The notes: generated by a model from the letters alone, not told the origin. Shown: positions 150 to 11,184, counted from the stretch's first letter. The stretch: 14,666 nucleotides of DNA from a virus (UHGV-0276404); one strand, 5' to 3'. Translations and numbers: made by a program.

Positions 150-3100
150 TTAACTTATTAGATCCGCTATTTTCTTTTCTTGATATGCCATCCTTATTAT
201 TTCAAATTCATCCATACGCATCATGTAAATAGATCTTGTCAATACCAAATTTCCATGTTTATCTTCTTTAATTTCATCTGCACCTTCTATTAATTTAATA
301 ATCCCAAATTCATTAACTGGAATTGGACAAGACTCAATATCAATAGGATAAAAATCACCAGATTCGTTTTCTCTTACCAAAACACTGGTTTCTTCATACG
401 TAATAAGACCATACTTCTTCCAATCAAGACCAGCTTTTGTAATTGCATCCTTAACTTGCTGCGCTACAACTCCAAAATGATATCTGGCATGTTCACTTCC
501 TTTTCGTAATATTTCATCCTTCATCTTCCACATTTGAAATTTTACACTACCCACGGCTTCAATAAGTTCAGTCGGTATATCCGAGAATTCATCTTTGTAA
601 TTAACATCTGAAACAACAGTGACAGCATTCTTGCTATATATGTTATTCCAGTATGCTGTCGTTGTACCATTATTAACTGTTCCTATCTGCCCTGTGGGAG
701 CAAAATAAGGATTATCATTAACTGGATTAGCTATCTCGACAAGAACTTGAGTACCGCCAAAGCTCCCGCCAGGGAACATACGAAACCTGTTTGGTAAGCG
801 ATAGTCATTAGAACCATAAGCATTCCAGCCAGCCCCATTTTCTACAGTACCACGACACCTAAATTCAACAACTTCTTGTATCTGCGGTGTTACATCATAT
901 CCACCACGTATAGACCAGTACTTATTATTGTCAGATTCTCTGCGGGAATCATGAACACGAAAAGCACCATTACTAGCATACTGAATGGCTTTTTTATATT
1001 CTGAAGTATTTTCTGAATACCCCCCCAATATCCAGTTCTCTCCTAATTTAAAGGAAACATCAAAAGCAGAACTTATAGAAGAAAGTGGTGAGTTATTAAC
1101 ACGAGTTGTCAAGGCGGAATTCAATGGTAATTCATTAGCAACCCCACGCGATTGTGAAATAAGAAATATCTGTTTTCCTCGTTTCGAATACACTCCATCG
1201 CTGTACTTTTTATCATTCGAGTATTCCCCACCACTAACTTTATTTGTTATCGCCCACATTCTAAATCCATCGGGATCATCCGGAGCAATACCAGAAGCAG
1301 TAGAAAAAGCGGAATAATTCTTTCCTTTGTAAGTTATAATAGATGCTCCAGAATCCCAATTATCCATAGTTAGAATAATAAGGTCTCCTTCATACATATC
1401 TATACCTTCAGGTTCAAATGAATGGGGGGTCCCATACTTTGGATTATCCATAAGATTTTTGTATCCATAAAGAGAACGAGCCCCCTCAAATGAAAATTCA
1501 GCAAGAATATTACCAGAATAATCAAACTTCTGAATAATATGCAACATAAACGGATGTGTATATCCCCTTAATATATAGATGTACTTACCATCACTGGCAA
1601 CATCTTGAATAACATGAGTATCAGTTCCGCGCTGCGGATGTGGAATCCTGAAATAATACAATGGTCTTGCGTCCAAACTATTGTCAAGGGATTCTACGTG
1701 TATCCTGCTGTAAACAAATACATACCAGGCATCATCATCTGCTGTGCTATCAGTTGCAACAAGAACAACATACCTTCCATCTGAAGATACACACGGGGTT
1801 GCTGAATTATAATTCTGATAAGGATGACCAGAACCAGAATATCCAAAAAGCTGATAAGTAATCACATCAGATTCAGATGTGCTGCTCCCTTTCCAAATTA
1901 ATTTTGAATAACCTTTTCCTCCATCATTTCCTCGATATGTAGGCTGGGTAACCATTTGGGTATAAATAAAAAGGTCATCATCAATAACTATCGTAGATAT
2001 TCCCTGATGGTTATTTAATATTGGTGCAGTGTAAGTAGTATTTTGCACTACTGAACCATCATCAGAAAACGAGTATTCAACCAGCCTGCGCTTCTCTAAA
2101 GCAGCTGCTGTTCCTGTACCAACCCCTGGACCATTCGCCGTAAATCGTACACCAATATTATTTTCAGCAGCCCCTATAGTTGTAAAATCAGTTGAACCTA
2201 TACTTACTATTTCATATTCAATTCCGGTTATGAAGTCACCAGCTGATGTTACTTTAGAGTTGAAGTTTCCACTACCTTCAGCACTGCCAACAACCGTTTG
2301 TAAAATAAATAATTTTTTACCATTATAATTCGCATAAGCACACCCTTGACTTGTAGCCTCACCATTTGGAAAAACTTGGGACTCACCAAAACCCATAAAT
2401 GCTTCCATTAAATGGCGTTGCACCAATGTATTACTGATATTATTACGAAGAGAAAGTAGATGACCAGTTTTGGAAAGAATCATCCCTTCCCCTGTCATTT
2501 TGCTTACATCTACTTTCAACGTATCAACAAGATATACTCCAGGTGGAACATAAGCATTTTCAGGAGCCAGAATAAAAGAATTCGTATCATCAGTTATACC
2601 ATCTCCAACAGCAGCATAATCTTTCACACTTACTGTATCACGCATCTTATCCTGGAACGTTCTGTATACAGCTCCAGCACCATACTGGATAAACCATCCG
2701 AAACCACCGACAACACCAGCAATTGCAGCATCCACATACTTACGCATTGAACGATTATTTACAGCGTCCTGCTCAAGTGATGGATCTGCAAGGTTAGAAA
2801 TTTTGTTTTGCTTTGCATCGTAATATTTTGCAAGCAGCGAGGGCTTCATCAATGCACGTCTGAACCACCCAAAACATCGCTGGATCAGCATCGTCAGGTA
2901 GTCGAATGCATCCTCATGAATTTCGGGGAAAAATTTTCCCTGATTGCGAAGATCAGTCTCCTGCACCACATCAAGCACACGCTCTATCGTAATTCGCCAG
3001 CCAGCAGCAAGCGGCGACGGAAGAACCACTTCACCGCCACTATAAGTGCCCGCTCCAGTTACCTTATAACCGGTATCAAGCACCAATTCTGTTACGTTCC

Positions 3101-3224
3101 CGTTCAGATCAGACACCTGAACAACCAGGTCGGATTTTTTGAAAATACGGAAGGTATACGGAAATGATGTCGTAACTCCGTTACCGGTGTATTCGTTGTG
3201 GTCAACTTCGGTTGAGACCGTCAT
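150..3224 (-). CDS. Tailspike / tail fibre with probable depolymerase: T7 gp17-like N-terminal adaptor, pectate-lyase-like beta-helix, C-terminal intramolecular chaperone (peptidase S74-like)
   Basis: 1024-aa ORF; ATG at 3224 preceded by GGAG 7 nt upstream. N-terminus (EYTGNGVTTSFPYTF...) has the pattern of the T7 gp17 virion-attachment domain. VSVKDYAAVGDGITDDTNSF matches the hallmark start of right-handed beta-helix (Pectate_lyase_3) domains. C-terminus (FQMWKMK...ARYHFGVVAQQVKDAI) resembles the auto-cleaving chaperone domain of endosialidase-type tailspikes. Gene looks AT-rich by eye relative to the terminase region. Confidence 0.85.
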   Translation of the reverse strand: MTVSTEVDHNEYTGNGVTTSFPYTFRIFKKSDLVVQVSDLNGNVTELVLDTGYKVTGAGTYSGGEVVLPSPLAAGWRITIERVLDVVQETDLRNQGKFFPEIHEDAFDYLTMLIQRCFGWFRRALMKPSLLAKYYDAKQNKISNLADPSLEQDAVNNRSMRKYVDAAIAGVVGGFGWFIQYGAGAVYRTFQDKMRDTVSVKDYAAVGDGITDDTNSFILAPENAYVPPGVYLVDTLKVDVSKMTGEGMILSKTGHLLSLRNNISNTLVQRHLMEAFMGFGESQVFPNGEATSQGCAYANYNGKKLFILQTVVGSAEGSGNFNSKVTSAGDFITGIEYEIVSIGSTDFTTIGAAENNIGVRFTANGPGVGTGTAAALEKRRLVEYSFSDDGSVVQNTTYTAPILNNHQGISTIVIDDDLFIYTQMVTQPTYRGNDGGKGYSKLIWKGSSTSESDVITYQLFGYSGSGHPYQNYNSATPCVSSDGRYVVLVATDSTADDDAWYVFVYSRIHVESLDNSLDARPLYYFRIPHPQRGTDTHVIQDVASDGKYIYILRGYTHPFMLHIIQKFDYSGNILAEFSFEGARSLYGYKNLMDNPKYGTPHSFEPEGIDMYEGDLIILTMDNWDSGASIITYKGKNYSAFSTASGIAPDDPDGFRMWAITNKVSGGEYSNDKKYSDGVYSKRGKQIFLISQSRGVANELPLNSALTTRVNNSPLSSISSAFDVSFKLGENWILGGYSENTSEYKKAIQYASNGAFRVHDSRRESDNNKYWSIRGGYDVTPQIQEVVEFRCRGTVENGAGWNAYGSNDYRLPNRFRMFPGGSFGGTQVLVEIANPVNDNPYFAPTGQIGTVNNGTTTAYWNNIYSKNAVTVVSDVNYKDEFSDIPTELIEAVGSVKFQMWKMKDEILRKGSEHARYHFGVVAQQVKDAITKAGLDWKKYGLITYEETSVLVRENESGDFYPIDIESCPIPVNEFGIIKLIEGADEIKEDKHGNLVLTRSIYMMRMDEFEIIRMAYQEKKIADLIS

Positions 3225-3327
3225 GTTAAATCTCCAGATAGTCGCAGCACCCGTTGCGCCGCATATCTGGTCATTCTATTACCTAAAAAACCACATATGG
3301 ATAGACAACCCATAAATACGAACAGAT

Positions 3328-3343
3328 ATTACCTTTCAGGTGA
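3328..3343. promoter_or_regulatory. Operator-like inverted repeat ATTACCTTTCAGGTGA (copy 1 of the ATTACC-N5-GGTRA family)
   Basis: Intergenic, upstream of the 3420 gene. An extra ATTACC half-site at 3288-3293 and the shared string AACCACATATG also occur upstream of the tRNA unit (10708-10730). Confidence 0.45.
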
Positions 3344-3380
3344 TTTGCAAAACGTGCTGGATAGCAAACAAATTATTTGT

Positions 3381-3419: not shown

Positions 3420-3677
3420 ATGCAGCAGTATCACTATCCACTGGAAGACGGATTTACCGAAAGGATTCACACGCCGGGAGGCGTCAGATCACTGGTGGAG
3501 GGATCGCACTTGATGAAATTACTCCGGGATCTCGATAAGGATGGATTTAATGTCGATGGCCCACTTGCCGAACTGACTGCACTGATTAACTACGTCACCA
3601 GGTCACAGATGTCTATGCGGGATCTGCAAACACATCTCGACTATTGTGCCGAACAATTACGAAAACAAACCCGGTAA
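3420..3677 (+). CDS. Small Tum-like antirepressor candidate (85 aa), homologous to the C-terminal domain of the Bro-N antirepressor at 4826-5536
   Basis: ATG at 3420 with GGAG 9 nt upstream. The longer ORF-track start (3297) would place the LexA box and operator inside the coding sequence, so the internal start is preferred. Shares Y..PL..G....IH.P ... G.V..L.E.S.LM.LL..L..DG..V.G..AELT ... LRD.QTH..Y with the Ant C-terminus. Confidence 0.6.
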   Translation: MQQYHYPLEDGFTERIHTPGGVRSLVEGSHLMKLLRDLDKDGFNVDGPLAELTALINYVTRSQMSMRDLQTHLDYCAEQLRKQTR

Positions 3678-3683
3678 ATTTAA

Positions 3684-3701
3684 AGGCCGCAAGAGCGGCC
3701 T
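3684..3701. terminator. Bidirectional GC hairpin AGGCCGC-AAGA-GCGGCCT between convergent genes
   Basis: 7-bp GC-rich stem with 4-nt loop and T-rich flanks on both strands; near-identical to the hairpin at 6553-6570. Confidence 0.55.
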
Positions 3702-4428
3702 ATCGTTTCGCTTTGTGCTCATCCCAGCACGTTTTGCACCATGCCATTAATCCGTCCGCATTTTGATTATTAGGGTAAAAGCTGGTTCGTTTTCTGCGGA
3801 CATTACAAATTGGGCACCACTTCATATGGCGTGTATTCTTTGGGCCATCGAGACACCTTGCACACCACTTAGTCAATCCATCTGGATTTTTTGACGATTT
3901 CCTGAATTTTTCATATGGTAGGTTTATTCTGCATCGCAAGCACTGCTTGCTACCACTTGAAACTCTGTTAGCTGATTCTTCTTTTGGCGGCGATACAGAA
4001 GGTATTCTTGCTGGCTCTGATACTGCCTGAGGTGCTTTTTTAGATGACTGAGACGATATGTCATCACCAGGGAATCTTCCATGATATGCCGGACGCGTTG
4101 ACACTCCAGGTGGAAGCTCAGCTGTAAACGGCTTTGGCTGAATCAGTTGCCTCTCTTTTGCTAACTCCTGCTGTTTATAATATGTCTGGATTACCGCACT
4201 ATCATAAGCAGGAGGTGCGGAAATATTAGGCGCATTACCTCCAGTTTTTTGAAACTGAGTAGAGGTGTGTTCTATCACCTGTGTACGATTAATCGTTATC
4301 TCCCCATCTTCGGTCTTTATCGTTTTGTTATGATTAACGACCGTACGATCAGAGATCTTAGTCTTGTTCTGGTTGATAACGTAAATAATCACCGCAACCA
4401 CACCAACAACTATCCAGAAAACTTCCAT
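3700..4428 (-). CDS. Membrane-anchored protein with four C-terminal CxxC motifs (two zinc-ribbon-like modules); function unknown
   Basis: 242-aa ORF; ATG at 4428 with GAGG 7 nt upstream. N-terminal hydrophobic helix (MEVFWIVVGVVAVIIYVI), then CLRC...WCARC...WCPIC...WCKTC. Transcribed divergently from the antirepressor. Confidence 0.7.
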   Translation of the reverse strand: MEVFWIVVGVVAVIIYVINQNKTKISDRTVVNHNKTIKTEDGEITINRTQVIEHTSTQFQKTGGNAPNISAPPAYDSAVIQTYYKQQELAKERQLIQPKPFTAELPPGVSTRPAYHGRFPGDDISSQSSKKAPQAVSEPARIPSVSPPKEESANRVSSGSKQCLRCRINLPYEKFRKSSKNPDGLTKWCARCLDGPKNTRHMKWCPICNVRRKRTSFYPNNQNADGLMAWCKTCWDEHKAKR

Positions 4429-4447
4429 TGCTTTTCCTCACAATAAC

Positions 4448-4464
4448 ATTACCTTAAAGGTAAT
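4448..4464. promoter_or_regulatory. Perfect 17-bp palindrome ATTACCTTAAAGGTAAT (operator-like, copy 2)
   Basis: Read directly; sits in the divergent promoter region between the 3700-4428 gene and ant. A partial copy (CTTTCAGGTGA) follows at 4471-4481. Confidence 0.5.
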
Positions 4465-4540
4465 ATCTTGCTTTCAGGTGATCAAGCGTTAAACGCAACC
4501 AACCAAATACGGTTGATTTTAATATTTCTTCGCGTTTATC

Positions 4541-4556
4541 ATTACCTTTGCGGTAA
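4541..4556. promoter_or_regulatory. Operator-like inverted repeat ATTACCTTTGCGGTAA (copy 3)
   Basis: Same TTACC-N5-GGTAA geometry, about 270 bp upstream of the ant start. Confidence 0.45.
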
Positions 4557-4825
4557 ATTTACATCGCACTCCTCTTGTGCCATAGTAATCGGGTACTGGC
4601 AAAATCCAGTGCCGGGATTGGCGTCCCGAGTTACTAAGTGGCGCATACCACGCCAGACGTGGTTTTTTTATGCGTTAAGCACAGCTATATCCGAATTATG
4701 GTGGGCTGGGCAGGGGTCCGAAAGGACGCCGGTACCACTTAGGCCGGTACGCCAACCTTGTCCAGTTCACCACCAGTAATTGGCGTTGCGGTGGTGATTA
4801 AAATCACTAAGTGGAGATAACCACC

Positions 4826-5536
4826 ATGGCTAATGCTCAAACTGCCATCTTCAAATTTGAATCTGTTAACCCTATCCGTTCCATCATTATCGATGGCCAA
4901 CCATGGTTTGTAGCCCAAGACGTTTGTAGTGCGCTGCGTATCCAAAACGTCACCCAAGCACTTGAAAAACTGGATGATGATGAAAGGTCTATGTTCAACA
5001 TAGGGCATGAACATCGTGCAATTTTTGACAGCCGAGTAAAAGAGATCAACATCATCTCCGAGTCAGGCCTCTACACACTGATCCTCCGCTGCCGCGACGC
5101 AGTGACACCAGGCACTATCCCCTACCGCTTTCGTAAATGGGTTACAGGTGAGGTTCTTCCTCAGATCCGCCGCACCGGAAGTTACATTAAAAACTCGCTC
5201 CCGCAGGAAGAACGCATAAAGATGGTTGCCGACCAGGTTGCAAACGCCACAGCATCAGCAGTGATGCAGGCAATGAAGATAGAGAACAAAACCTACAGCG
5301 CCCCGCTGAAGCCCGGCTACCGCAGCCTGATTCACTCGCCGTCTGGTGTTCTCGGCCTGACGGAGAACTCACTGCTGATGAATCTGCTGAACCAGTTACA
5401 GGAAGACGGGCACGACGTATCGGGCGCGGCGGCGGAGCTGACCACCATGTTCTGCTACATCGTCGGTGTGAGCAAATGCCTGCGTGATATCCAGACGCAC
5501 GCGGAATACATCAACGACAAGGCAGGGTTCTTCTGA
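4826..5536 (+). CDS. ant: Phage antirepressor with N-terminal Bro-N domain
   Basis: ATG at 4826 with GGAG at 4813-4816 (the ORF-track GTG at 4811 overlaps the SD). N-terminus FKFESVNPIRSIIIDGQPWFVAQDVCSALRI...GLYTLILRCRDAVTPGTIPYRFRKWVTGEVLPQI fits the Bro-N/AntA fold. Confidence 0.85.
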   Translation: MANAQTAIFKFESVNPIRSIIIDGQPWFVAQDVCSALRIQNVTQALEKLDDDERSMFNIGHEHRAIFDSRVKEINIISESGLYTLILRCRDAVTPGTIPYRFRKWVTGEVLPQIRRTGSYIKNSLPQEERIKMVADQVANATASAVMQAMKIENKTYSAPLKPGYRSLIHSPSGVLGLTENSLLMNLLNQLQEDGHDVSGAAAELTTMFCYIVGVSKCLRDIQTHAEYINDKAGFF

Positions 5537-5607
5537 CGGGCGGTGGCACATGGATGTGCTTTTAAATAATTCTGTACGATTGCAGACAGGGTGGTGAATA
5601 GAGTACT

Positions 5608-5623
5608 ATTACCTTACGGGTGA
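5608..5623. promoter_or_regulatory. Operator-like inverted repeat ATTACCTTACGGGTGA (copy 4)
   Basis: Intergenic, downstream of ant and upstream of the leader ORF and terminator that precede the 5753 gene. Confidence 0.4.
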
Positions 5624-5660
5624 TCCATAGCGATTAGGCACCGATACAGGAGGAGCCCAC

Positions 5661-5693
5661 ATGAGAAAATTTGACGAGTACGAAGGCGTTTAA
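5661..5693 (+). CDS. Possible 10-codon leader peptide (MRKFDEYEGV)
   Basis: Strong SD (CAGGAGGAG) 5 nt upstream of ATG 5661; stop at 5691-5693; followed 20 nt later by an intrinsic terminator. Too short to support by composition alone. Confidence 0.3.
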   Translation: MRKFDEYEGV

Positions 5694-5712
5694 CATTCGG
5701 ATAGTTTAATGA

Positions 5713-5737
5713 CGGGGCCATTAGGCCCCGTTTTCAT
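5713..5737 (+). terminator. Intrinsic terminator / attenuator CGGGGCC-ATTA-GGCCCCG + TTTTCAT
   Basis: 7-bp GC stem, 4-nt loop, U-run; ends 5 nt before the SD of the 5753 gene. Confidence 0.6.
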
Positions 5738-5752
5738 GTCTGGAGACAGTTT

Positions 5753-6292
5753 GTGTTAAGTGAAGAAATGCAATTTGCCATGGCTGTGGCTCAAATCGTA
5801 AGTGCAGTCGCGGTTTCGCTTGGCTTGTTCATAGCTATCGCTACTATTATTTATAATGTAAATACAGCGAGAAAAGTACACACTTCAGTATTCCTTGGTG
5901 AAAGCAGGTTTGATGTAGATTATAAGAAAGGCCTATCTACTATGCGCCGCATTCACGAGTCGAACAAATCATTCCGCTCTTATATGTATCCAAGCAATGG
6001 GCAGGCTGATCTTACGGATGAAGAAAAGATAGAGAAGAGAGAAATAATTTACTGTCTAGGTTTCTACGAACGCATGGCTGTGAGCGTGAAGCGGAAAACT
6101 TATGATGAGACCATGATTAAGGAAGTATTTTACAGCTCCGTTGTAAATAACTATCAGATTGCGCTACCTCTTATACAAGCTATTAGAGAAAAAGAAAACA
6201 TAAACACATATTTTAAAGAATATGAATGGTTAGCCACACGATGGAAGGATTGTCCATTGAAGGATAAATCCCCGTGGTACAAGTTTTGGTAA
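5753..6292 (+). CDS. Membrane-anchored moron protein (179 aa), unknown function
   Basis: GTG at 5753 with GGAGA at 5742-5746 (alternative ATG at 5768). N-terminal hydrophobic helix (AMAVAQIVSAVAVSLGLFIAIATIIY) followed by a charged soluble domain; AT-rich by eye. Confidence 0.7.
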   Translation: MLSEEMQFAMAVAQIVSAVAVSLGLFIAIATIIYNVNTARKVHTSVFLGESRFDVDYKKGLSTMRRIHESNKSFRSYMYPSNGQADLTDEEKIEKREIIYCLGFYERMAVSVKRKTYDETMIKEVFYSSVVNNYQIALPLIQAIREKENINTYFKEYEWLATRWKDCPLKDKSPWYKFW

Positions 6293-6316
6293 GCCCGCGG
6301 CGAGGGCTTTTTTGTG
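6291..6316 (+). terminator. Intrinsic terminator AAGCCC-GCGGCGA-GGGCTT + TTTTTG
   Basis: Hairpin directly after the stop at 6290-6292, followed by a U-run. Confidence 0.5.
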
Positions 6317-6385
6317 GACGAAACAAAAGTCAGTGCTACACTCATTGACGCCACATTGAGGTGGCTTATAGATGGAAATGTCACA

Positions 6386-6547
6386 ATGAAAAAAGCATTT
6401 GCTGCACTGTTCGTTTTGTTGTCTCTGGTAGCTTCAACTCAGGCCTTTGCCGGTCGTTGTCAGCACGACAGCGATACTGCCGCTGACGGCTCCCGCTGCG
6501 GTGGGCGTTCTGCGGATTCCCGCCCTGGCGGCGGTGGCATTCGTTAA
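6386..6547 (+). CDS. Small secreted peptide (53-aa precursor with a cleavable signal peptide; ~31-aa mature peptide with two Cys and a Gly-rich tail)
   Basis: MKKAFAALFVLLSLVASTQAFA / GRCQHDSDTAADGSRCGGRSADSRPGGGGIR. The ORF-track start (6314) overlaps the preceding terminator, so the ATG at 6386 is preferred. SD is weak (GGA 9 nt upstream), and the apparent TTGACG / TATAGA promoter lies so close that the mRNA may be near-leaderless. Confidence 0.5.
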   Translation: MKKAFAALFVLLSLVASTQAFAGRCQHDSDTAADGSRCGGRSADSRPGGGGIR

Positions 6548-6552
6548 AAACA

Positions 6553-6570
6553 AGGCCGCGAAAGCGGCCT
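6553..6570. terminator. Bidirectional GC hairpin AGGCCGC-GAAA-GCGGCCT between convergent genes
   Basis: Paralogue of the 3684-3701 hairpin; T-rich flanks on both strands (TGTTTTTAA on the minus side, TTCCTTTT on the plus side). Confidence 0.6.
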
Positions 6571-6582
6571 GTGACATGTCAC
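6571..6582. repeat. Perfect 12-bp palindrome GTGACATGTCAC (copy 1 of 3)
   Basis: Read directly; immediately abuts the terminator hairpin and overlaps the stop codon of the 6579-6875 gene. Confidence 0.9.
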
Positions 6583-6875
6583 GTTCCTTTTCTGAATGAT
6601 AGCCATTCGAAAAATGATGACATTCCACCGCAGACAATAGCAAAGATGATCCCACCAAAGAAGAGAAGGCCAGCCTGCCACCACTCCCACCGCCATACAT
6701 CCACAGCGCCAACCATACCAACAATCGCTCCAACAAATGGAATATAGCTCACGATGAAAGCAATGGGGGCTGCAATTATCCAGTGCAATCCCCACCATGA
6801 TTCAAGCCCAGCCATAATTGCTGCCAACTGAAAAAGACCAACGACGATATAAACAATGAATCCTATCGCTTGCAT
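6579..6875 (-). CDS. Small multi-pass membrane protein (98 aa), last gene of the virion operon; holin-like or immunity-like
   Basis: ATG at 6875 with GGTGA 4 nt upstream. Three to four hydrophobic segments, Trp-rich (WRWEWW). Overlapping alternative-frame ORFs (6434-6736, 6544-6798) are judged spurious. Confidence 0.6.
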   Translation of the reverse strand: MQAIGFIVYIVVGLFQLAAIMAGLESWWGLHWIIAAPIAFIVSYIPFVGAIVGMVGAVDVWRWEWWQAGLLFFGGIIFAIVCGGMSSFFEWLSFRKGT

Positions 6876-6883
6876 GTAGTCAC

Positions 6884-7255
6884 CTATTTATTTTTTAGCT
6901 TTTCATCCATAGCAAATTTCGTTGCTAAATTTTCACCATCTGATTTAAGCCTTCCAATAAATTTCCGCTTACCGTCTTGAGAGGAATTTAAATAGTATAT
7001 ATTTGATTCAGCAATCTTTTGTATGTACGACTCGCATGACACAACCGAAGCTTTGGATATAGAATCAACACTTTCTCCTGTCTTAGCGTATTTTACGACC
7101 TGCCCTTTTATACATCCAAAATATTCCATTGTATGCTTTTTAGAATCCTCCAGTGTTTCCCCATTTTTAGGCTGAATCATTAACGGTGAGGTAGTATCTG
7201 CAAAAGATTTTACAACTAAAAGCATAAGAATAATCATTAATATAATTCTGTTCAT
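6884..7255 (-). CDS. Secreted/periplasmic protein (123 aa) with a signal peptidase I-type signal peptide; AT-rich
   Basis: ATG at 7255 lies 1 nt after the TAA of the transglycosylase gene, with GGGAAG upstream (translational coupling). MNRIILMIILMLLVVKSFA / DTT... signal peptide, no lipobox; two Cys in the mature part. Confidence 0.65.
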   Translation of the reverse strand: MNRIILMIILMLLVVKSFADTTSPLMIQPKNGETLEDSKKHTMEYFGCIKGQVVKYAKTGESVDSISKASVVSCESYIQKIAESNIYYLNSSQDGKRKFIGRLKSDGENLATKFAMDEKLKNK

Positions 7256-7256
7256 A

Positions 7257-8366
7257 TTACTTCCCTAGCATGAACTGCGATGGTGGGATCAGAAAGTCGT
7301 TACCCTGTTCACGCTCAACACGGCGCTGATAACGCTCAAGAGAGCCTGGGTCGCCAATCTGTTTAATCCAGCCGTCAACCTTTCCTGGGCCAGCGTTATA
7401 GGCAGCTACTGCCAGAACCGGGTTATTGTCGTATTTCTTCATCTGCGCGCCGAAATAAGCTTGCCCCAAGCGGGCATTATAGCGCGGGTCATTCAACCAT
7501 TTATCTCGGTCCCACGGCACACCAGCAAGGCGGGCAGCTTCGGGGCCAGTATCTTCCGTCACCTGCGCTACGCCAACAGCGCCTTTTGGCGACACCAGAG
7601 GTGTTCCGTCCTTTCCGTACTGATTTCCGCCACTCTCCTGCCAGATTATTGCAGAGAATAACTGCGCCTCACTCGGTGTATCGGTTACCTCAATCTTGCC
7701 GTTCGGCCCCATCATCTGTTGATACATCGGCACATACCACGCCTCCGCCGCACCGTTCGCGGCATTCTCGCGCCACGAAACCCAGTTCTGTTCGATCTCT
7801 TCCTGACTCTGGCCGTGGGCTTCGCCGTAAGCGATGATGCTATGATATGCCTTCAATCCTGCCTGGTTTGCCATTGTCGGGTTACGGAACTGCATCGATA
7901 GGTTTTTTAGTGTCGCATCCTGCATATCCGCCTCATACTGGCGAACCTGTCCTATTTCGTACCTCCCGGCCTGCGTAGTGAACTGAATACGCTGTTGCTG
8001 CGCCTGCTGCATGAAAGCATTACGAGCCTGTTCATCTGGCAGCGACATAGCCAGTTGTTCAACCTGAGCATCAAACTGCTGCGTATACTCATGGCCTTTT
8101 CCAATAGCATTTTTCCCTTTCAGGTTAAGCAATCCTGTTTCAGGATTATTCAGCAGATCACTGCCTGTCTGACTGAGTTTAAGGGATGCCTCCTGAACAA
8201 AGGCAATATTGGCACGCTGTTTTGCCTGACCAAAAACATCAATTGCCTCTGTCCCTGCCCGAACAAAAGCATCACCAATACCTGGCTGAGAAAACGTCTG
8301 CAAGCCTGCTGACTGAACTCCACGACTCTCAACCTGACGTCCGGATACTGTTGGTACGACTGGCAT
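7257..8366 (-). CDS. Internal-virion-type protein with C-terminal lytic transglycosylase (SLT) domain
   Basis: Start ATG at 8366-8364 overlaps the upstream stop (TAATG) with GGAGGA 5 nt upstream; the ORF-track N-terminal extension to 8441 is rejected. SLT motifs IIWQESGGNQYG...GAVGVAQV...AYNAGPGKV; Gln-rich N-terminal region. Confidence 0.85.
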   Translation of the reverse strand: MPVVPTVSGRQVESRGVQSAGLQTFSQPGIGDAFVRAGTEAIDVFGQAKQRANIAFVQEASLKLSQTGSDLLNNPETGLLNLKGKNAIGKGHEYTQQFDAQVEQLAMSLPDEQARNAFMQQAQQQRIQFTTQAGRYEIGQVRQYEADMQDATLKNLSMQFRNPTMANQAGLKAYHSIIAYGEAHGQSQEEIEQNWVSWRENAANGAAEAWYVPMYQQMMGPNGKIEVTDTPSEAQLFSAIIWQESGGNQYGKDGTPLVSPKGAVGVAQVTEDTGPEAARLAGVPWDRDKWLNDPRYNARLGQAYFGAQMKKYDNNPVLAVAAYNAGPGKVDGWIKQIGDPGSLERYQRRVEREQGNDFLIPPSQFMLGK

Positions 8367-8911
8367 TATAATCCTCCGGGTAATCTGGTTCCTGCTGCTG
8401 CCCCGATTGGCGCAGGAGTGCTTTGAGTAAACGGACTCCACGTCCCACCAAACATCTGGTACGCACCGTATGCCTTCAGAGGCGCAGTGAGCAATGTTGT
8501 TGCTGCTCCTACATTCCCCTGTTTACGGGCTGAACTGGCTTCTGCTTTATAGTTGGCAGCCTGCACCTGATAACCGTAAGCCTCGCGTTGCGCGTTATTC
8601 ACCGTCGTTAGCGAATCAAGAGCACCAAACTGAGCAGTGTCACCAAATATATCCAGCGCGTTACCTGTAGATAAATCAGCGCCGGTAGCCCCCATTGTCG
8701 CCGCCTGTGTACCAAGCCGCTGTCGGGTCTCTCTGCGCCGTTGCTCAGCTTCAGCGTTACCTCTGTTTATTGCATCATTTGCCTGAGCTGTGGCTATATC
8801 TGCGTTCGCTTCTGCAACCTTCGAGGCATACTTTCCCTGTTGGTACTGGGTGTATGCCTGAATGCCACTCATGGCGAGCATTGCGCCACCAGCAATAACC
8901 GGATCGCACAT
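8366..8911 (-). CDS. Putative internal virion / ejection protein (181 aa, Ala/Gln/Gly-rich)
   Basis: ATG at 8911 overlaps the upstream stop (TAATG); operon context between a virion-type protein and the SLT protein. No recognisable catalytic motif. Confidence 0.55.
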   Translation of the reverse strand: MCDPVIAGGAMLAMSGIQAYTQYQQGKYASKVAEANADIATAQANDAINRGNAEAEQRRRETRQRLGTQAATMGATGADLSTGNALDIFGDTAQFGALDSLTTVNNAQREAYGYQVQAANYKAEASSARKQGNVGAATTLLTAPLKAYGAYQMFGGTWSPFTQSTPAPIGAAAGTRLPGGL

Positions 8912-9375
8912 TATTTTCTCTCCATGTGAAATCTGTGGAAATTAAGACCAAGAGCACCATAAGGCGCGGCTTCTTCAAGCCTGAATCCAAGCCAGTGCAG
9001 CCATGCTTTGGCAACATGGTTTCGCTCATCGACGTAGTTTTCCAGGCGCGGATAAACTGCCAGCATCTGCTGCAATACAGGGCGGCAGTGGCGAAGAAAT
9101 GTCTTCTGATATTTTTCAATACGGCTGGTTCCTACCAGCCAGGGCGTACCATTGCCACCGATCATTGACGCCGGAGATACGCCAAACATGGTTACCAGTT
9201 CTCCGTTCGCAAATCCTGACCAGGCCATAGTCGCAGTGCGAAGACCAACACGCAGCGCATCTTCGGTAGTCATCAGCGATACCGCATACAGTTCGTCAAT
9301 ATCAGCCTGACGAACATCCGGCAAAATCATCTGAAGATGCTCTTCGGTAGCGGGAACAATTCGAACATCGATCAT
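8911..9375 (-). CDS. Hypothetical virion-operon protein (154 aa); weak GNAT-like C-terminal motif
   Basis: ATG at 9375 overlaps the upstream stop (TGATG). C-terminal NHVAKAWLHWLGFRLEE loosely resembles the acetyl-CoA-binding region of GNAT acetyltransferases; recalled from memory, unverified. Confidence 0.5.
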   Translation of the reverse strand: MIDVRIVPATEEHLQMILPDVRQADIDELYAVSLMTTEDALRVGLRTATMAWSGFANGELVTMFGVSPASMIGGNGTPWLVGTSRIEKYQKTFLRHCRPVLQQMLAVYPRLENYVDERNHVAKAWLHWLGFRLEEAAPYGALGLNFHRFHMERK

Positions 9376-9965
9376 CAGAATCCCCCAACAGTAAGGCGAG
9401 GAATAACGGCAAGAACAGACAGCGGCAACGGATCAAGCTGACGGATTTTTACACGTCCGTTTTTGCCCCAGTTACTGTCCAGTTTCACTTCTACTTTTCC
9501 GGTAGCATCATCAACAGGATCATCGTAGAACTCGAATTCACGCTGTGGATATTCGTACCATTTACCGCCGGGCGTAGTCGCCCAGATGCCGCGACTGGCA
9601 TTCACAACCAGAGTAACGGAGGGGATCACCTGTTTTTTGTCCAGCAGCGTTTCCTGTCCGTTAATGTTGATATCCAGTGTTTCGAATTCAGCAGTTATTG
9701 GCAGGCCGATGTGCACTACAGCCCCCGGAGATTCCAGCGTGACGGCACCTCCGGAAACCACTTTCTGTGGTTCCACGTTCGCATCAGAGAGAATGTTTAC
9801 GGTCTGGCCTTCAAGATGAGACAGGCCTCCAAATGTCCGGCGCGCCATCTGCCAGTTCGTGGTGGCCACATTCCTGAGGGATGGCGGGACGTTCCTGTTA
9901 GCACGAACCACTACAGCGGTATTGCTGGTTACAGAAATAATGTCGCAACGTAATTCTTTTGACAC
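9375..9965 (-). CDS. Hypothetical structural-operon protein; 5' end and true start uncertain (possible fusion remnant)
   Basis: The frame is open from 9965, but the first in-frame start is GTG with no SD and it overlaps the portal-like ORF by 37 nt in another frame. The internal ATG at 9848 also lacks a good SD. Confidence 0.45.
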   Translation of the reverse strand: MSKELRCDIISVTSNTAVVVRANRNVPPSLRNVATTNWQMARRTFGGLSHLEGQTVNILSDANVEPQKVVSGGAVTLESPGAVVHIGLPITAEFETLDININGQETLLDKKQVIPSVTLVVNASRGIWATTPGGKWYEYPQREFEFYDDPVDDATGKVEVKLDSNWGKNGRVKIRQLDPLPLSVLAVIPRLTVGGF

Positions 9966-10459
9966 CTCATCGCCAGTATCAGGATCAGTTCCGGTATCGG
10001 GAATGGCATTGTGCGAATGATGTCCTCGTCATCCTCCAGCACTGCCATTGCACCAGTGCTGTATGTGCCGAGGCTTCCGTATAACTGCGGCAGCGACTGA
10101 TAGAGATTCGACTTATTGAACATATCGTTCATGCGGTTCTGCACCGCCTCAAGCCACAACTTAACAGGGCCATAATCCATCATTTCAGGATCTGGCGTAG
10201 CCAGGCGAAACCACGGACGCGCGGGGCTTGTGATGCCTGACATCATGCCGCTGGCGAGAGTGCGCGCCGCCATAGTCCCGGTCGAATCAATAATGCGTGT
10301 ATTGCGTCGATCGTTACGGTTGACCTCAGAAGTCAGAAAGCGGGAACCACGCGGGTTGATGTAATCACTCAACTCGCGCCAGTGCGGCTCGAACGACTGA
10401 CGCTCGCTTTCAAGTTGTGCGAACTGTTTGTTCAATCGCTCTTTAGTTGTTTCCGCCAT
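9929..10459 (-). pseudogene. Portal (head-tail connector) N-terminal fragment, T7 gp8-like, only ~176 aa
   Basis: ATG at 10459 with GGAG 8 nt upstream. ERQSFEPHWRELSDYINP...TLASGMMSGITSPARPWFRLA matches the N-terminal pattern of podovirus portals as I recall T7 gp8 (DRAPYETRAQNCAQYTIP...LASKLMLALFPMQTWMRLT). The ORF ends after 176 aa, whereas full portals are 500+ aa. Confidence 0.5.
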
Positions 10460-10473
10460 TTCAATGACTCCGG

Positions 10474-10680
10474 TTACTGACCAAGCAGCGTTTTACCGCT
10501 GGTATTAGCGGTTGATGTGTCACCCTGAGAACCGGTAAGCAGCGTAGAACTACGACCAGCAGCAGCGCGACGGCGACGAGTTTCTTCGTCGCGGGCATCA
10601 ACAACGGCGGCATCCTGCTCCTGTGGTGCTGCCTGAACTTCTGGTGTTGCAGGCACTGACGGTGAGCTACCCATGCACAT
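10474..10680 (-). CDS. Small Ser/Thr/Ala-rich protein (68 aa) upstream of the portal fragment; possibly T7 gp6.7-like
   Basis: ATG at 10680 preceded by CGGAGTCATTGAT, a near-duplicate of the translation-initiation region at 10459-10475. Preferred over the overlapping frame 10461-10700, whose stop would overlap the next gene's SD. The gp6.7 analogy rests only on size, position and the MC- start. Confidence 0.4.
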   Translation of the reverse strand: MCMGSSPSVPATPEVQAAPQEQDAAVVDARDEETRRRRAAAGRSSTLLTGSQGDTSTANTSGKTLLGQ

Positions 10681-10769
10681 ATCAATGACTCCGTACGCAA
10701 TTAAATTATTACCAATTTAACCACATATGATTTATTTATCGTAGACAGTTGACATTTAACGCACGAATT

Positions 10770-10785
10770 ATTACCTTTCAGGTAA
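10770..10785. promoter_or_regulatory. Operator-like inverted repeat ATTACCTTTCAGGTAA (copy 5), overlapping a candidate promoter (TTGACA at 10750-10755)
   Basis: TTGACA, a 15-nt spacer, then the motif; heads the plus-strand tRNA unit. An upstream half-site at 10708-10713 and AACCACATATG at 10719-10729 mirror the arrangement at 3288-3343. Confidence 0.45.
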
Positions 10786-11107
10786 GCAAATGGTTCATTC
10801 CGGTTATTAACCTGACTGGCTTGTCGTTAAATTGAACAGGTGGAGTGAGCTTTTATTTTGAGCAGTACGGCGTATGGCACATGCGCCGATAGCGGTCTGG
10901 ATACGTTTAAGGGGCACCCTCCCTTGCTCGGGCAAACGAACCAGGTAGCCGGAATGTGCAAGTCGAGCGGTTTTATTCCGCGCACGGGGATTCACCATCC
11001 CGGCGATTCGGTGTGACGCCTCGGAAGAGACGAGGGTACAACGATGAGAGCATTTATGGAGCCGCGACAAAGTGTGGCGCCTTAACAGGCTAAGTGCTCT
11101 CAGCGTT

Positions 11108-11184
11108 GTGGCATTAGCTCAGTTGGACAGAGCAACCGCCTTCTAAGCGGTTGGTCGCAGGTTCGAATCCTGCATGCCACGCCA
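11108..11184 (+). tRNA. tRNA-Arg (anticodon UCU, reads AGA)
   Basis: Hand-folded cloverleaf: acceptor GTGGCAT/ATGCCAC, D-arm GCTC-AGTTGGACA-GAGC, anticodon arm ACCGC-CTTCTAA-GCGGT, variable TGGTC, T-arm GCAGG-TTCGAAT-CCTGC, discriminator G and encoded CCA. 77 nt. Confidence 0.9.

What the first reader, a model, noticed from the sequence alone, without database searches (positions are those of the whole stretch)
3700..4428. Membrane-tethered tandem zinc-ribbon protein transcribed divergently from the antirepressor through the operator-bearing intergenic region
The product has an N-terminal membrane anchor (positive-inside rule suggests a cytoplasmic C-terminal domain), a low-complexity Pro/Ser linker, and two CxxC-x(n)-WCxxC modules sharing the internal string DGL..WC, typical of zinc ribbons that bind nucleic acid or protein. 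Its promoter region contains two ATTACC operators, so it is probably co-regulated with ant. Candidate roles are membrane sequestration of a regulator (anti-sigma or anti-repressor style) or superinfection exclusion. I do not recognise the family.
Basis: inference. Interest (0 to 1): 0.55.

Follow-up and report, generated by a model that had tools for sequence, protein, structure and literature searches.

The report
Membrane-anchored zinc-finger prophage accessory protein
This is a real, conserved but uncharacterised prophage gene for an inner-membrane-anchored protein that holds two basic zinc-finger modules in the cytoplasm; its position beside repressor genes in other phages makes it a good candidate for a new protein that protects lysogens from other phages, but its function is untested.

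Summary
ORF 3700-4428(-) encodes a 242-aa protein with an N-terminal transmembrane helix, a conserved juxtamembrane segment, a variable disordered Pro/Ser linker and two Cys4 modules (CxxC-x22-CxxC). It is under purifying selection and belongs to a family without annotated function (phrog_6762; no Pfam, NCBIfam or PADLOC family).

The window is a defective epsilon15/phiV10-like (Uetakevirus) E. coli prophage. The gene is an optional cassette that phiV10 lacks.

Its putative promoter has its -10 inside a perfect ATTACC-N5-GGTAAT palindrome. That palindrome is the phage-wide dispersed operator.

In other phage lineages the homologue starts 11-18 nt after a CI-type or Mnt repressor gene. This is the lambda rexAB / P22 sieA type of position.

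Best reading (about 0.4): a phage-exclusion or abortive-infection protein built like AbiP and PdpSau (membrane anchor plus nucleic-acid-binding domain). Regulator sequestration and phage-DNA anchoring remain rivals. Nothing has been tested experimentally.

The parts
3700..4428 (-). CDS, 242 aa: membrane-anchored tandem zinc-module protein (phrog_6762 family)
   Evidence: ORF. phrog_6762 E = 1e-150. 33 homologue clusters and about 60 representatives at 50% identity with the same architecture. Purifying selection.
4369..4422 (-). Residues 3-20: single N-terminal transmembrane helix. The N-terminus is Met-Glu, and basic residues follow the helix, predicting N-out/C-in.
   Evidence: AF2 helix 3-20, pLDDT about 90. 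Family-wide pattern of M-E/D, about 18 hydrophobic residues, then N-(N/Q)-(K/R) with +1 to +3 charge on the C-side. Topology is inferred from the positive-inside rule.
4261..4368 (-). Residues 21-56: conserved Thr/Ile/Lys-rich juxtamembrane segment (NQNKTKxSDRTV...TIKTEDGEIxIxRTQV), predicted to be a beta-hairpin
   Evidence: Many nearly invariant columns. AF2 strands 27-39 and 42-54, but pLDDT is only about 45-50, so the structure is not secure.
3955..4260 (-). Residues 57-158: variable, Pro/Ser-rich, disordered linker (one mid-confidence helix at 77-93)
   Evidence: Length varies by about 40 residues within the family. pLDDT is mostly below 50. dN/dS is about 0.5-1 or more.
3847..3954 (-). 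Residues 159-194: zinc module 1, KQC163xxC166...F175...D183G184xT186xW188C189xxC192L
   Evidence: Invariant Cys, D, G and W. pLDDT above 90, four strands plus a helix. Sub-threshold Pfam Stc1 match over 161-193.
3703..3828 (-). Residues 201-242: zinc module 2, KWC205PxC208xxRRKRTSF...NADGLMAWC231KxC234, plus a C-terminal helix
   Evidence: PHROG matches to the zinc modules of 'endonuclease VII', HNH and Lar-like families.
3684..3701 (.). G+C-rich hairpin: terminator shared with the convergent 85-aa ORF (3420-3677)
   Evidence: 7 pairs, 6 G-C, followed by a T-rich tail on the - strand. Equivalent hairpins follow the homologues in L005, L009 and L013.
4435..4439 (-). Shine-Dalgarno GAGGA, 6 nt before the ATG
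   Evidence: Read directly from the sequence.
4448..4464 (.). Perfect 17-bp palindrome ATTACCTTAAAGGTAAT (operator). On the - strand it contains the putative -10 hexamer TACCTT (4457-4462).
   Evidence: 9 sites in the window against 0.5 expected. The same motif occurs at 9 sites in phiV10, including the repressor/cro region. The same -10-inside-operator geometry is seen in other genera. Protein binding is inferred.
4480..4485 (-). Putative -35 hexamer TTGATC, 17 nt upstream of TACCTT
   Evidence: Read from the sequence. It was not reported by the consensus scan because the -10 matches only 3 of 6 positions. It is supported by the conserved layout TTGAnn-16/17-TACCnT in L005/L007, L013, L072-L077, L079, L096 and L009 (TTGAAT-17-TAACCT).
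4541..4557 (.). Second operator copy ATTACCTTTGCGGTAAA, at the promoter region of the divergent isrK-C4-ant unit
   Evidence: It overlaps or abuts the + strand promoter-like sites 4513-4542 and 4558-4586. phiV10 has the equivalent site TTTACCGCAAAGGTAAA.

Best explanation
The gene is a self-contained accessory cassette ('moron') of epsilon15/phiV10-like prophages.

Architecture. The product inserts into the inner membrane through one N-terminal helix, with only Met-Glu outside. A conserved juxtamembrane segment, a long flexible linker and a strongly basic domain of two structural-zinc (Cys4) modules lie in the cytoplasm. These modules are the non-catalytic relatives of the zinc repeats that HNH/endonuclease VII enzymes use to hold DNA.

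Most likely function (inferred, about 0.4). The protein protects the cell that carries the prophage against other phages. The tethered zinc domain would bind incoming nucleic acid, or the ejection/replication complex, at the inner face of the membrane. The result would be blocked entry (superinfection exclusion) or an abortive response at the membrane. This is the logic of the membrane-anchored nucleic-acid-binding proteins AbiP and PdpSau, and it matches the genomic position of P22 sieA and lambda rexAB.

Shown here: the ORF, its conservation and selection; the domain architecture; the fold resemblance; the operator-embedded putative promoter; and the genomic contexts.

Inferred: membrane topology, zinc and nucleic-acid binding, repression through the operator, and the protective function.
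For: The gene is real and selected.

Architecture:
- TM helix 3-20 and a C-terminal domain with pLDDT above 90.
- The C-domain has net charge +14 over 83 residues and pI 9.9. Sampled relatives with intact domains carry +12 to +19.

Fold:
- Hpy99I has two tandem Cys4 beta4-alpha2 repeats that both contact DNA, the first of them non-catalytic (PMC2699513).
- 41 BFVD matches with E <= 1e-3 include HNH, endonuclease VII, beta-beta-alpha-Me and Stc1-domain viral proteins among many unnamed ones.
- Outside the family the module is fused to Endonuclease_7, HNH and helicase domains.

Accessory nature:
- The gene is absent from phiV10.
- It is present in 129 of 5426 complete E. coli genomes.
- It lies in the variable region between tailspike and ejection-protein genes, alongside HicAB, antirepressor and similar genes.

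Lysogeny-operon position:
- The homologue starts 15-18 nt after CI-type repressor genes of several different lineages: three carry HTH_3 plus Peptidase_S24 and one HTH only.
- It starts 11 nt after mnt in an arc-ant/mnt module.
- P22 sieA occupies the equivalent gene 16 to gene 9 interval (PMC10883804).

Precedent: PdpSau and AbiP are prophage- or host-encoded membrane-anchored proteins with basic nucleic-acid-binding cytoplasmic domains that abort infection (PMC10127798).
Against: - There is no experimental or transcriptomic evidence.
- PADLOC gives no match, and no homology to SieA, Rex, AbiP or PdpSau was detected.
- In this window and in related Uetakevirus prophages, the putative -10 lies inside an operator that is probably bound by the prophage repressor. 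This predicts repression in a stable lysogen, unlike a classical lysogen-expressed exclusion gene. The caveat is that the lysogenic-conversion gene oac of phiV10 has the same operator upstream.
- The eukaryotic Stc1 domain is reported as a LIM-domain protein associated with Ago1 (PMC2875855 title and term counts; its role as a protein-protein module is from my own knowledge). The ligand here could therefore be a protein.
- Antirepressor-type genes recur close to the gene. This fits a regulatory role equally well.
Confidence: 0.4

Rival explanations
1. Regulator sequestration in the lysis-lysogeny circuit. The membrane-tethered zinc domain binds a protein and holds it at the membrane, adding a protein-level layer to immunity control. 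The bound protein could be the Bro-N/KilA-N/Rha-type antirepressor, its small C-terminal-domain paralogue, or a repressor.
For: - An antirepressor-type gene lies within one to three genes in most contexts: window, L004/L013, L005-L007, L015, phiARM81mr, and L119/L120/L158.
- The gene shares the phage operator with neighbouring regulatory genes.
- It is co-transcribed with cI or mnt elsewhere.
Against: - Several contexts have no antirepressor gene nearby: Providencia L009 and Yersinia-type L083/L084.
- The strongly basic domain and its nuclease and helicase fusion partners point to nucleic acid rather than protein.
- phiV10 and other relatives regulate ant without this gene.
Confidence: 0.17
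2. Phage-DNA anchoring for the phage's own benefit. An early protein tethers the infecting or replicating phage genome to the inner membrane, as phi29 p16.7 does (N-terminal transmembrane helix plus C-terminal DNA-binding domain). This would improve DNA entry, replication or packaging.
For: The operator-overlapped promoter predicts expression on infection or induction rather than in the stable lysogen. The protein combines a membrane anchor, a flexible linker and a basic, DNA-binding-like zinc domain. The comparison with p16.7 rests on my own knowledge of the phi29 literature and was not tested here.
Against: - The gene is dispensable and patchily distributed among close relatives.
- It is retained intact in a prophage that has lost its head and ejection genes.
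- In other lineages it sits in the cI or mnt operon, which is expressed in lysogens.
- No sequence or fold similarity to any solved structure, including p16.7, was found.
Confidence: 0.13
3. Counter-defence or host takeover. The protein binds and inactivates a host membrane-associated defence or housekeeping component early in lytic growth.
For: The gene is an accessory gene in a variable region, with predicted early expression from an operator-controlled promoter. One PHROG with the same zinc module is labelled 'Lar-like restriction alleviation protein'.
Against: The Lar-like match covers only the generic zinc module. The cI and mnt operon positions are typical of lysogen-expressed protective genes, not of anti-defence genes. 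No target can be proposed.
Confidence: 0.1

Closest known systems
PdpSau (S. aureus prophages) and lactococcal AbiP: membrane-anchored, nucleic-acid-binding abortive-infection proteins
   Same: Both have a single N-terminal transmembrane helix and a positively charged cytoplasmic domain predicted or shown to bind nucleic acid. PdpSau is a prophage accessory gene and acts as a single protein (PMC10127798).
   Different: No sequence or fold homology was found. Their binding domain is OB-fold-like, whereas this protein has two Cys4 zinc modules. They come from Gram-positive hosts. The phenotype of the present protein is unknown.
P22 SieA (superinfection exclusion) and lambda RexAB (position downstream of cI)
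   Same: The genomic position is analogous. The gene lies between ejection-protein and tailspike genes, as sieA does (PMC10883804). In one relative it starts directly after mnt, and in several lineages directly after cI. All are inner-membrane proteins.
   Different: SieA is a multi-pass membrane protein with no zinc domain, and RexB has four transmembrane helices with a separate RexA. No homology was detected. In this window the gene has its own operator-controlled putative promoter rather than lying in a repressor operon.
Tandem Cys4 beta4-alpha2 repeats of beta-beta-alpha-Me / HNH / endonuclease VII nucleases (Hpy99I, PacI) and the Pfam Stc1 domain (PF12898)
   Different: No catalytic Asp-His...Asn residues and no HNH or Endonuclease_7 Pfam match. 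The window protein scores 21.0 bits on Stc1, below the 24.8-bit cut-off. It is membrane-tethered, unlike the nucleases examined here.
ZipA and phi29 p16.7 (architectural analogues; from my own knowledge, not tested here)
   Same: N-out/C-in N-terminal anchor, flexible linker and a C-terminal ligand-binding domain held at the inner face of the membrane.
   Different: The domains are unrelated. ZipA binds FtsZ, and p16.7 binds DNA through a helical dimer. No homology was found.

Membership tests
phrog_6762 (phage protein family, function unknown) | Full-length match to the family profile | tested here: met
   E = 1.1e-150, residues 1-242 against profile positions 1-242 of 242.
Pfam Stc1 domain (PF12898) | Score at or above the gathering cut-off of 24.8 bits | tested here: not met
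   The window protein scores 21.0 bits. 24 of 30 family members match, the best at E = 1.2e-4; the only bit score shown, the window's, is below the cut-off. More distant proteins found with the family profile do pass, at up to about 60 bits. This supports a superfamily-level relationship but not formal membership.
Pfam Stc1 domain (PF12898) | Tandem Cys-rich zinc modules (eight Cys in four CxxC pairs) | tested here: met
   C163/166/189/192 and C205/208/231/234 are conserved across the family. Zinc binding itself could not be tested.
HNH / beta-beta-alpha-Me / endonuclease VII nucleases | Cys4 structural-zinc beta-hairpin/helix repeat | tested here: met
HNH / beta-beta-alpha-Me / endonuclease VII nucleases | Catalytic Asp-His general base and Asn/His metal ligand; match to the Pfam HNH or Endonuclease_7 model | tested here: not met
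   No His is invariant, and H201 is lost in distant members. Apart from Cys, the invariant columns of the close alignment are K, L, S, D, G, T and W. No member matches an HNH or Endonuclease_7 Pfam model.
P22 SieA superinfection-exclusion family | Sequence homology to a multi-pass inner-membrane protein carrying the FxRYPxEAxxFNK motif | tested here: not met
   The protein has one transmembrane helix only. No PHROG or PADLOC match other than phrog_6762 and zinc-module families. The motif is absent from the sequence. The SieA features are taken from PMC10883804.
P22 SieA superinfection-exclusion family | Position between ejection-protein and tailspike genes, near mnt | tested here: met
   Window and relatives. 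In L015 the gene starts 11 nt after mnt. This is positional analogy only.
AbiP / PdpSau-type membrane-anchored nucleic-acid-binding Abi proteins | N-terminal membrane anchor plus basic cytoplasmic domain | tested here: met
   Helix 3-20. C-domain pI 9.9, net charge +14.
AbiP / PdpSau-type membrane-anchored nucleic-acid-binding Abi proteins | OB-fold-like nucleic-acid-binding domain; homology to AbiP or PdpSau | tested here: not met
   The C-domain consists of two zinc modules.
AbiP / PdpSau-type membrane-anchored nucleic-acid-binding Abi proteins | Abortive-infection phenotype with membrane depolarisation on infection | not testable with these tools
   This requires phage challenge and membrane-potential assays.
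Zinc-binding anti-sigma factors (ZAS) | N-terminal cytoplasmic H-x3-C-x2-C anti-sigma domain followed by a transmembrane segment | tested here: not met
Repressor-operon 'passenger' genes (lambda rexAB type) | Located immediately downstream of the maintenance repressor gene on the same strand | tested here: inconclusive
   Met for homologues in phiARM81mr/L101, L106/L109/L112, L123 and L156/L158 (15-18 nt after a CI-type gene) and in L015 (after mnt). Not met in this window, where the gene stands alone with its own putative promoter.

The most novel reading that the evidence does not exclude
The protein is a new component of temperate-phage immunity circuitry. The membrane-tethered zinc-finger protein would be wired to the phage's global operator, or to the cI or mnt operon. 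It would capture a regulator (antirepressor or repressor), or the incoming genome end of a competitor, at the inner membrane. Control of superinfection and induction would then take place at the membrane rather than on the DNA.
Probability: 0.15. Interest if true: 0.75.

Novelty: new variant of a known kind. Interest (0 to 1): 0.5.

Why it matters
Prophage accessory genes beside repressor genes and in the tailspike/ejection-protein interval have repeatedly proved to be exclusion or defence functions (rexAB, sieA, PdpSau).

This family has features that make it worth testing:
- It is widespread. It occurs in about 2% of complete E. coli genomes and in prophages of Serratia, Enterobacter/Citrobacter-type hosts, Salmonella, Providencia, Pectobacterium, Yersinia and Aeromonas, plus many metagenomic lineages.
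- It has no annotation, and no match to any model in PADLOC-DB v2.0.0 (2023).
- It has a simple one-protein architecture that is easy to test.

If protective, it would be a Gram-negative single-protein system that couples a membrane anchor to an HNH-type zinc DNA-binding module. It could also give a handle on how podovirus DNA emerges at the inner membrane. The dispersed 17-bp operator that overlaps its putative promoter may also help map the poorly described regulatory circuit of epsilon15/phiV10-like phages.

Tried and rejected
- Sequence search against PDB with the single protein and with a family profile gave nothing meaningful.
- Foldseek against PDB with the full-length model gave no significant hit, because the disordered linker dominates the model. 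A second model of the C-terminal domain alone was needed.
- NCBIfam and PADLOC gave no match.
- The afdb50 fold library was unavailable.
- The scan of species-representative genomes found only two loci, both already seen. The family is too sporadic for that collection.
- The epsilon15 genome paper (PMC2698709, PMID 17825342) is not held. The identity of the operator-binding protein therefore rests on the site distribution in phiV10.
- Literature searches found nothing on the family: zinc ribbon plus superinfection exclusion plus prophage, and 'Stc1 domain' plus phage.
- Nuclease activity was considered and rejected, because no catalytic residues are conserved.
- A secreted or periplasmic protein was rejected. 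There is no basic n-region, and Cys4 zinc sites fit the cytoplasm.
- An 11-bp direct repeat, CGGTAAATTTA, flanks the cassette (3672-3682 and 4551-4561). It is not a convincing insertion scar: about 0.3 such pairs are expected by chance in the region, and phiV10 keeps a full operator at the right-hand junction.
- The consensus scan finds no - strand promoter upstream of the gene. The promoter proposed here rests on cross-genus conservation of TTGAnn-17-TACCTT.

Full report
**What is there**

ORF 3700-4428 on the minus strand starts with ATG and encodes 242 residues. A GAGGA Shine-Dalgarno lies 6 nt upstream. The stop codon runs into a G+C-rich hairpin at 3684-3701, which serves as a bidirectional terminator shared with the convergent small ORF 3420-3677.

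The protein reads as follows:
- Met-Glu, then 18 hydrophobic residues, then NQNKTKISDR.
- A Thr/Ile/Lys-rich segment.
- A Pro/Ser-rich stretch.
- Two modules, C163xxC166-x22-C189xxC192 and C205xxC208-x22-C231xxC234, each containing DGLxxWC.

**It is a real gene**

- 33 clusters of homologues were found in the 5.8-billion-protein collection, all from Enterobacterales where named and all called 'hypothetical'.
- An exhaustive profile search found 1737 proteins with E <= 1e-3. Of the best 150, a simple screen (N-terminal hydrophobic stretch, length under 260 aa) picked out about 60 representatives at 50% identity with the same architecture; some of these are fragments.
- In the alignments the first four Cys are invariant, and all eight are invariant in the distant set. 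The N-terminal 55 residues are far better conserved than a plain membrane anchor would need to be. The linker varies in length and sequence.
- Among 53 intact E. coli-type copies (38 alleles), dN/dS is about 0.1-0.3 overall, 0-0.1 in the zinc domain and near 1 in the linker.

**Where it sits**

The window is an epsilon15/phiV10-like (Uetakevirus) prophage of E. coli. The local gene order is:
- tailspike (150-3224, minus strand);
- an 85-aa ORF homologous to epsilon15 gp19 / phiV10 p24;
- the zinc-protein gene;
- a Bro-N antirepressor (4811-5536), followed by internal-virion protein genes and the terminase.

The prophage is defective. Relative to phiV10 it lacks positions 4043-10911 and 12962-19488. 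phiV10 lacks the zinc-protein gene: window 3672-4551 is replaced there by about 47 bp. The locus is present in 129 of 5426 complete E. coli genomes. The gene is therefore an optional cassette.

In Superficieibacter, Serratia, Providencia, Pectobacterium, Yersinia-type and other prophages, the homologue lies in the same variable interval between tailspike or terminase genes and ejection-protein genes. It is usually on the strand opposite the structural genes. Its neighbours include Bro-N/KilA-N/Rha antirepressors and HicAB.

**Structure and relatives of the domains**

AlphaFold2 with the family alignment gives:
- a confident helix at residues 3-20;
- a low-confidence hairpin at 27-54;
- a disordered linker;
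- a confident C-terminal domain (pLDDT above 90) made of two units, each with four strands and a helix.

Against predicted viral structures there are 41 matches with E <= 1e-3. The named ones are mainly HNH, endonuclease VII and beta-beta-alpha-Me nucleases, 'Zn-finger' and 'Stc1 domain' proteins of phages and giant viruses; many others are unnamed.

By sequence:
- PHROGs links the modules to 'endonuclease VII', HNH, Lar-like and primase families.
- Pfam gives a sub-threshold Stc1 match (21.0 against 24.8 bits).
- Of 87 non-family proteins carrying the module, 45 match Stc1. Eight match each of the Endonuclease_7, HNH and HNH_5 models (these sets may overlap), and others are helicases.

No catalytic His or Asn is conserved, so the domain is a binding module, not an enzyme. 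It is very basic, with net charge +14 in 83 residues and pI 9.9. I infer nucleic-acid binding. Protein binding, as I recall for the eukaryotic Stc1 domain (own knowledge; the held paper was not read beyond its listing), is not excluded.

**Regulation**

The 17-bp palindrome ATTACC-N5-GGTAAT occurs 9 times in the window at up to two mismatches, against 0.5 expected. It occurs 9 times in phiV10 at up to one mismatch, against 0.04 expected.

The phiV10 sites include the interval between the repressor gene and the cro-like gene, and the start of the early-left unit. Others lie upstream of p45, p24, oac and the structural operon. This dispersed pattern is what a global prophage repressor would give. 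That is an inference, because the epsilon15 paper could not be read.

Upstream of the zinc-protein gene the palindrome is perfect (4448-4464). On the gene's strand it contains TACCTT (4457-4462), which lies 17 nt downstream of TTGATC (4480-4485). The layout TTGAnn-16/17-TACCnT inside the palindrome recurs upstream of the homologues in Serratia, the Enterobacter/Citrobacter/Salmonella-type group, Pectobacterium, L079 and L096. In Providencia it appears with a TTAACC variant.

I therefore regard this as the promoter, and whatever binds the palindrome should occlude it. That predicts the gene is off when the operator is occupied. However, oac of phiV10 has the same palindrome 39-55 nt upstream of its start, and its record says it modifies the O antigen and functions in superinfection immunity. 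The state of the gene in a lysogen therefore cannot be decided from sequence.

The second palindrome (4541-4557) sits at the promoter of the divergent unit. That unit encodes an isrK-like RNA (4593-4669), a C4-type antisense RNA (4694-4777) and ant.

**The most informative new evidence: context in distant lineages**

- In Aeromonas phage phiARM81mr and related contigs, the homologue starts 18 nt after the stop of the annotated CI repressor.
- In three further groups (L106/L109/L112, L123, L156/L158) it starts 15-18 nt after different CI-type genes. L123 and L156 carry HTH_3 plus Peptidase_S24, and L106 carries HTH only.
- In L015 it starts 11 nt after mnt in a P22-type arc-ant/mnt module.
- In L114 it is adjacent to a CI-type gene but convergent with it.

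Being the cistron after the maintenance repressor is the position of lambda rexAB (own knowledge). P22 sieA lies between genes 16 and 9 (PMC10883804). These positions are typical of genes expressed in the lysogen to exclude other phages.

**Mechanism proposed**

I propose an inner-membrane-anchored protein whose basic zinc domain, on a flexible tether, binds incoming nucleic acid or the ejection/replication complex at the inner face of the membrane. The outcome would be blocked entry or an abortive response.

[quoted passage not shown] PdpSau has an N-terminal transmembrane helix and a positively charged cytoplasmic domain, and causes membrane depolarisation on infection (PMC10127798). There is no homology to either, and the binding domain is different. 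This would be a new variant of that kind, not a member.

I put this reading at about 0.4. The rivals are:
- sequestration of a regulator such as Ant, supported by the recurrent proximity of antirepressor genes (0.17);
- anchoring of the phage's own DNA in the manner of phi29 p16.7 (0.13);
- counter-defence (0.1).

The remainder is unassigned.

**Verdict**

The family is uncharacterised, and function remains a hypothesis that simple plating, fractionation and binding experiments would settle.

Noticed in passing
window 4593-4669 (+) and 4694-4777 (+): An isrK-like Hfq-binding sRNA (63.5 bits) and a C4 antisense RNA (66 bits) lie in tandem immediately upstream of the Bro-N antirepressor gene (4811-5536). 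This resembles the P1 immI c4-ant and Gifsy-1 isrK-anrP arrangements (from my own knowledge). A terminator-like hairpin lies at 4647-4663.
   Followed up: partly
window 3420-3677 (+), operator at 3328-3344: The 85-aa ORF (epsilon15 gp19 / phiV10 p24 homologue) is 43% identical to residues 160-233 of the neighbouring antirepressor. It is therefore a free-standing copy of the Ant C-terminal domain with its own operator-overlapped promoter, and could modulate Ant.
   Followed up: partly
window 3328, 4448, 4541, 5608, 10770, 13897, 13915 and others; phiV10 (L003) 86, 104, 3251, 20876, 24691, 31952, 32014, 32726, 35131: The 17-bp palindrome ATTACC-N5-GGTAAT is dispersed in front of most transcription units of this phage group and at the repressor/cro region. 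It is far more frequent than chance (9 sites against 0.5 expected in the window; 9 against 0.04 in phiV10). It is probably a global repressor operator, somewhat like the P1 C1 operators.
   Followed up: partly
window 3286-3300 (- strand); phiV10 (L003) about 20922, 3310, 24740, 35118: A second conserved motif, (C)ATATGTGGTT(T), lies about 8 nt before a GGTAAT/TATAAT-like element. It precedes the tailspike gene, the structural operon, the lysis operon and p45. It is a candidate late or middle promoter element.
   Followed up: no
window 7257-8441, 9375-10459 and the whole window compared with phiV10: The prophage is defective. It lacks phiV10 positions 4043-10911 (most of the portal, head and tail genes; the portal N-terminus abuts a tail-protein C-terminus at about 9965-9995). 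It also lacks 12962-19488 (ejection proteins; the SLT internal virion protein is cut to 394 aa). Terminase, tailspike and the accessory genes remain intact.
   Followed up: partly
window 5753-6292 (+), 6579-6875 (-), 6884-7255 (-): Further accessory genes lie next to ant. One is a DUF4760 membrane protein (E = 1.6e-30) with an operator copy at 5608-5624 upstream. The others are a 98-aa membrane protein (phrog_3075) and a 123-aa protein with a signal-peptide-like N-terminus. None has a known function.
   Followed up: no
window 11108-11184 (+): A tRNA-Arg (anticodon TCT) gene lies inside the prophage, between the p06-like ORF and the terminase region.
   Followed up: no
L071-L077, about 45-60 nt upstream of the homologue's start (for example L073 about 5930-5945): A perfect 14-bp palindrome, TGTGACATGTCACA, lies just upstream of the -35 of the homologue's promoter in the Enterobacter/Citrobacter/Salmonella/Superficieibacter group. 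It resembles a CRP site but has a 4-nt rather than a 6-nt spacer, so a second regulator may act there.
   Followed up: no
L123 5657-6310; also L156 and L158: In the lineages where the homologue follows cI, it is itself followed by a gene that overlaps its end. In L123 this gene's product matches SNase plus Excalibur and begins with a signal-peptide-like N-terminus; L156 and L158 encode closely similar proteins. It may be a co-transcribed partner in those phages.
   Followed up: no
L001 (TL-2011b) 6500-7588: In phage TL-2011b the homologous region is annotated only as a misc_feature. tblastn matches it only from residue 19 onward, so that copy appears to be disrupted at its 5' end.
   Followed up: no
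window 3700-3954 compared with 3955-4428, across E. coli alleles: Synonymous divergence in the zinc-domain third of the gene (dS about 0.16-0.24) is several-fold higher than in the rest (often 0-0.05) in many allele pairs. This suggests recombination within the gene between diverged alleles.
   Followed up: no
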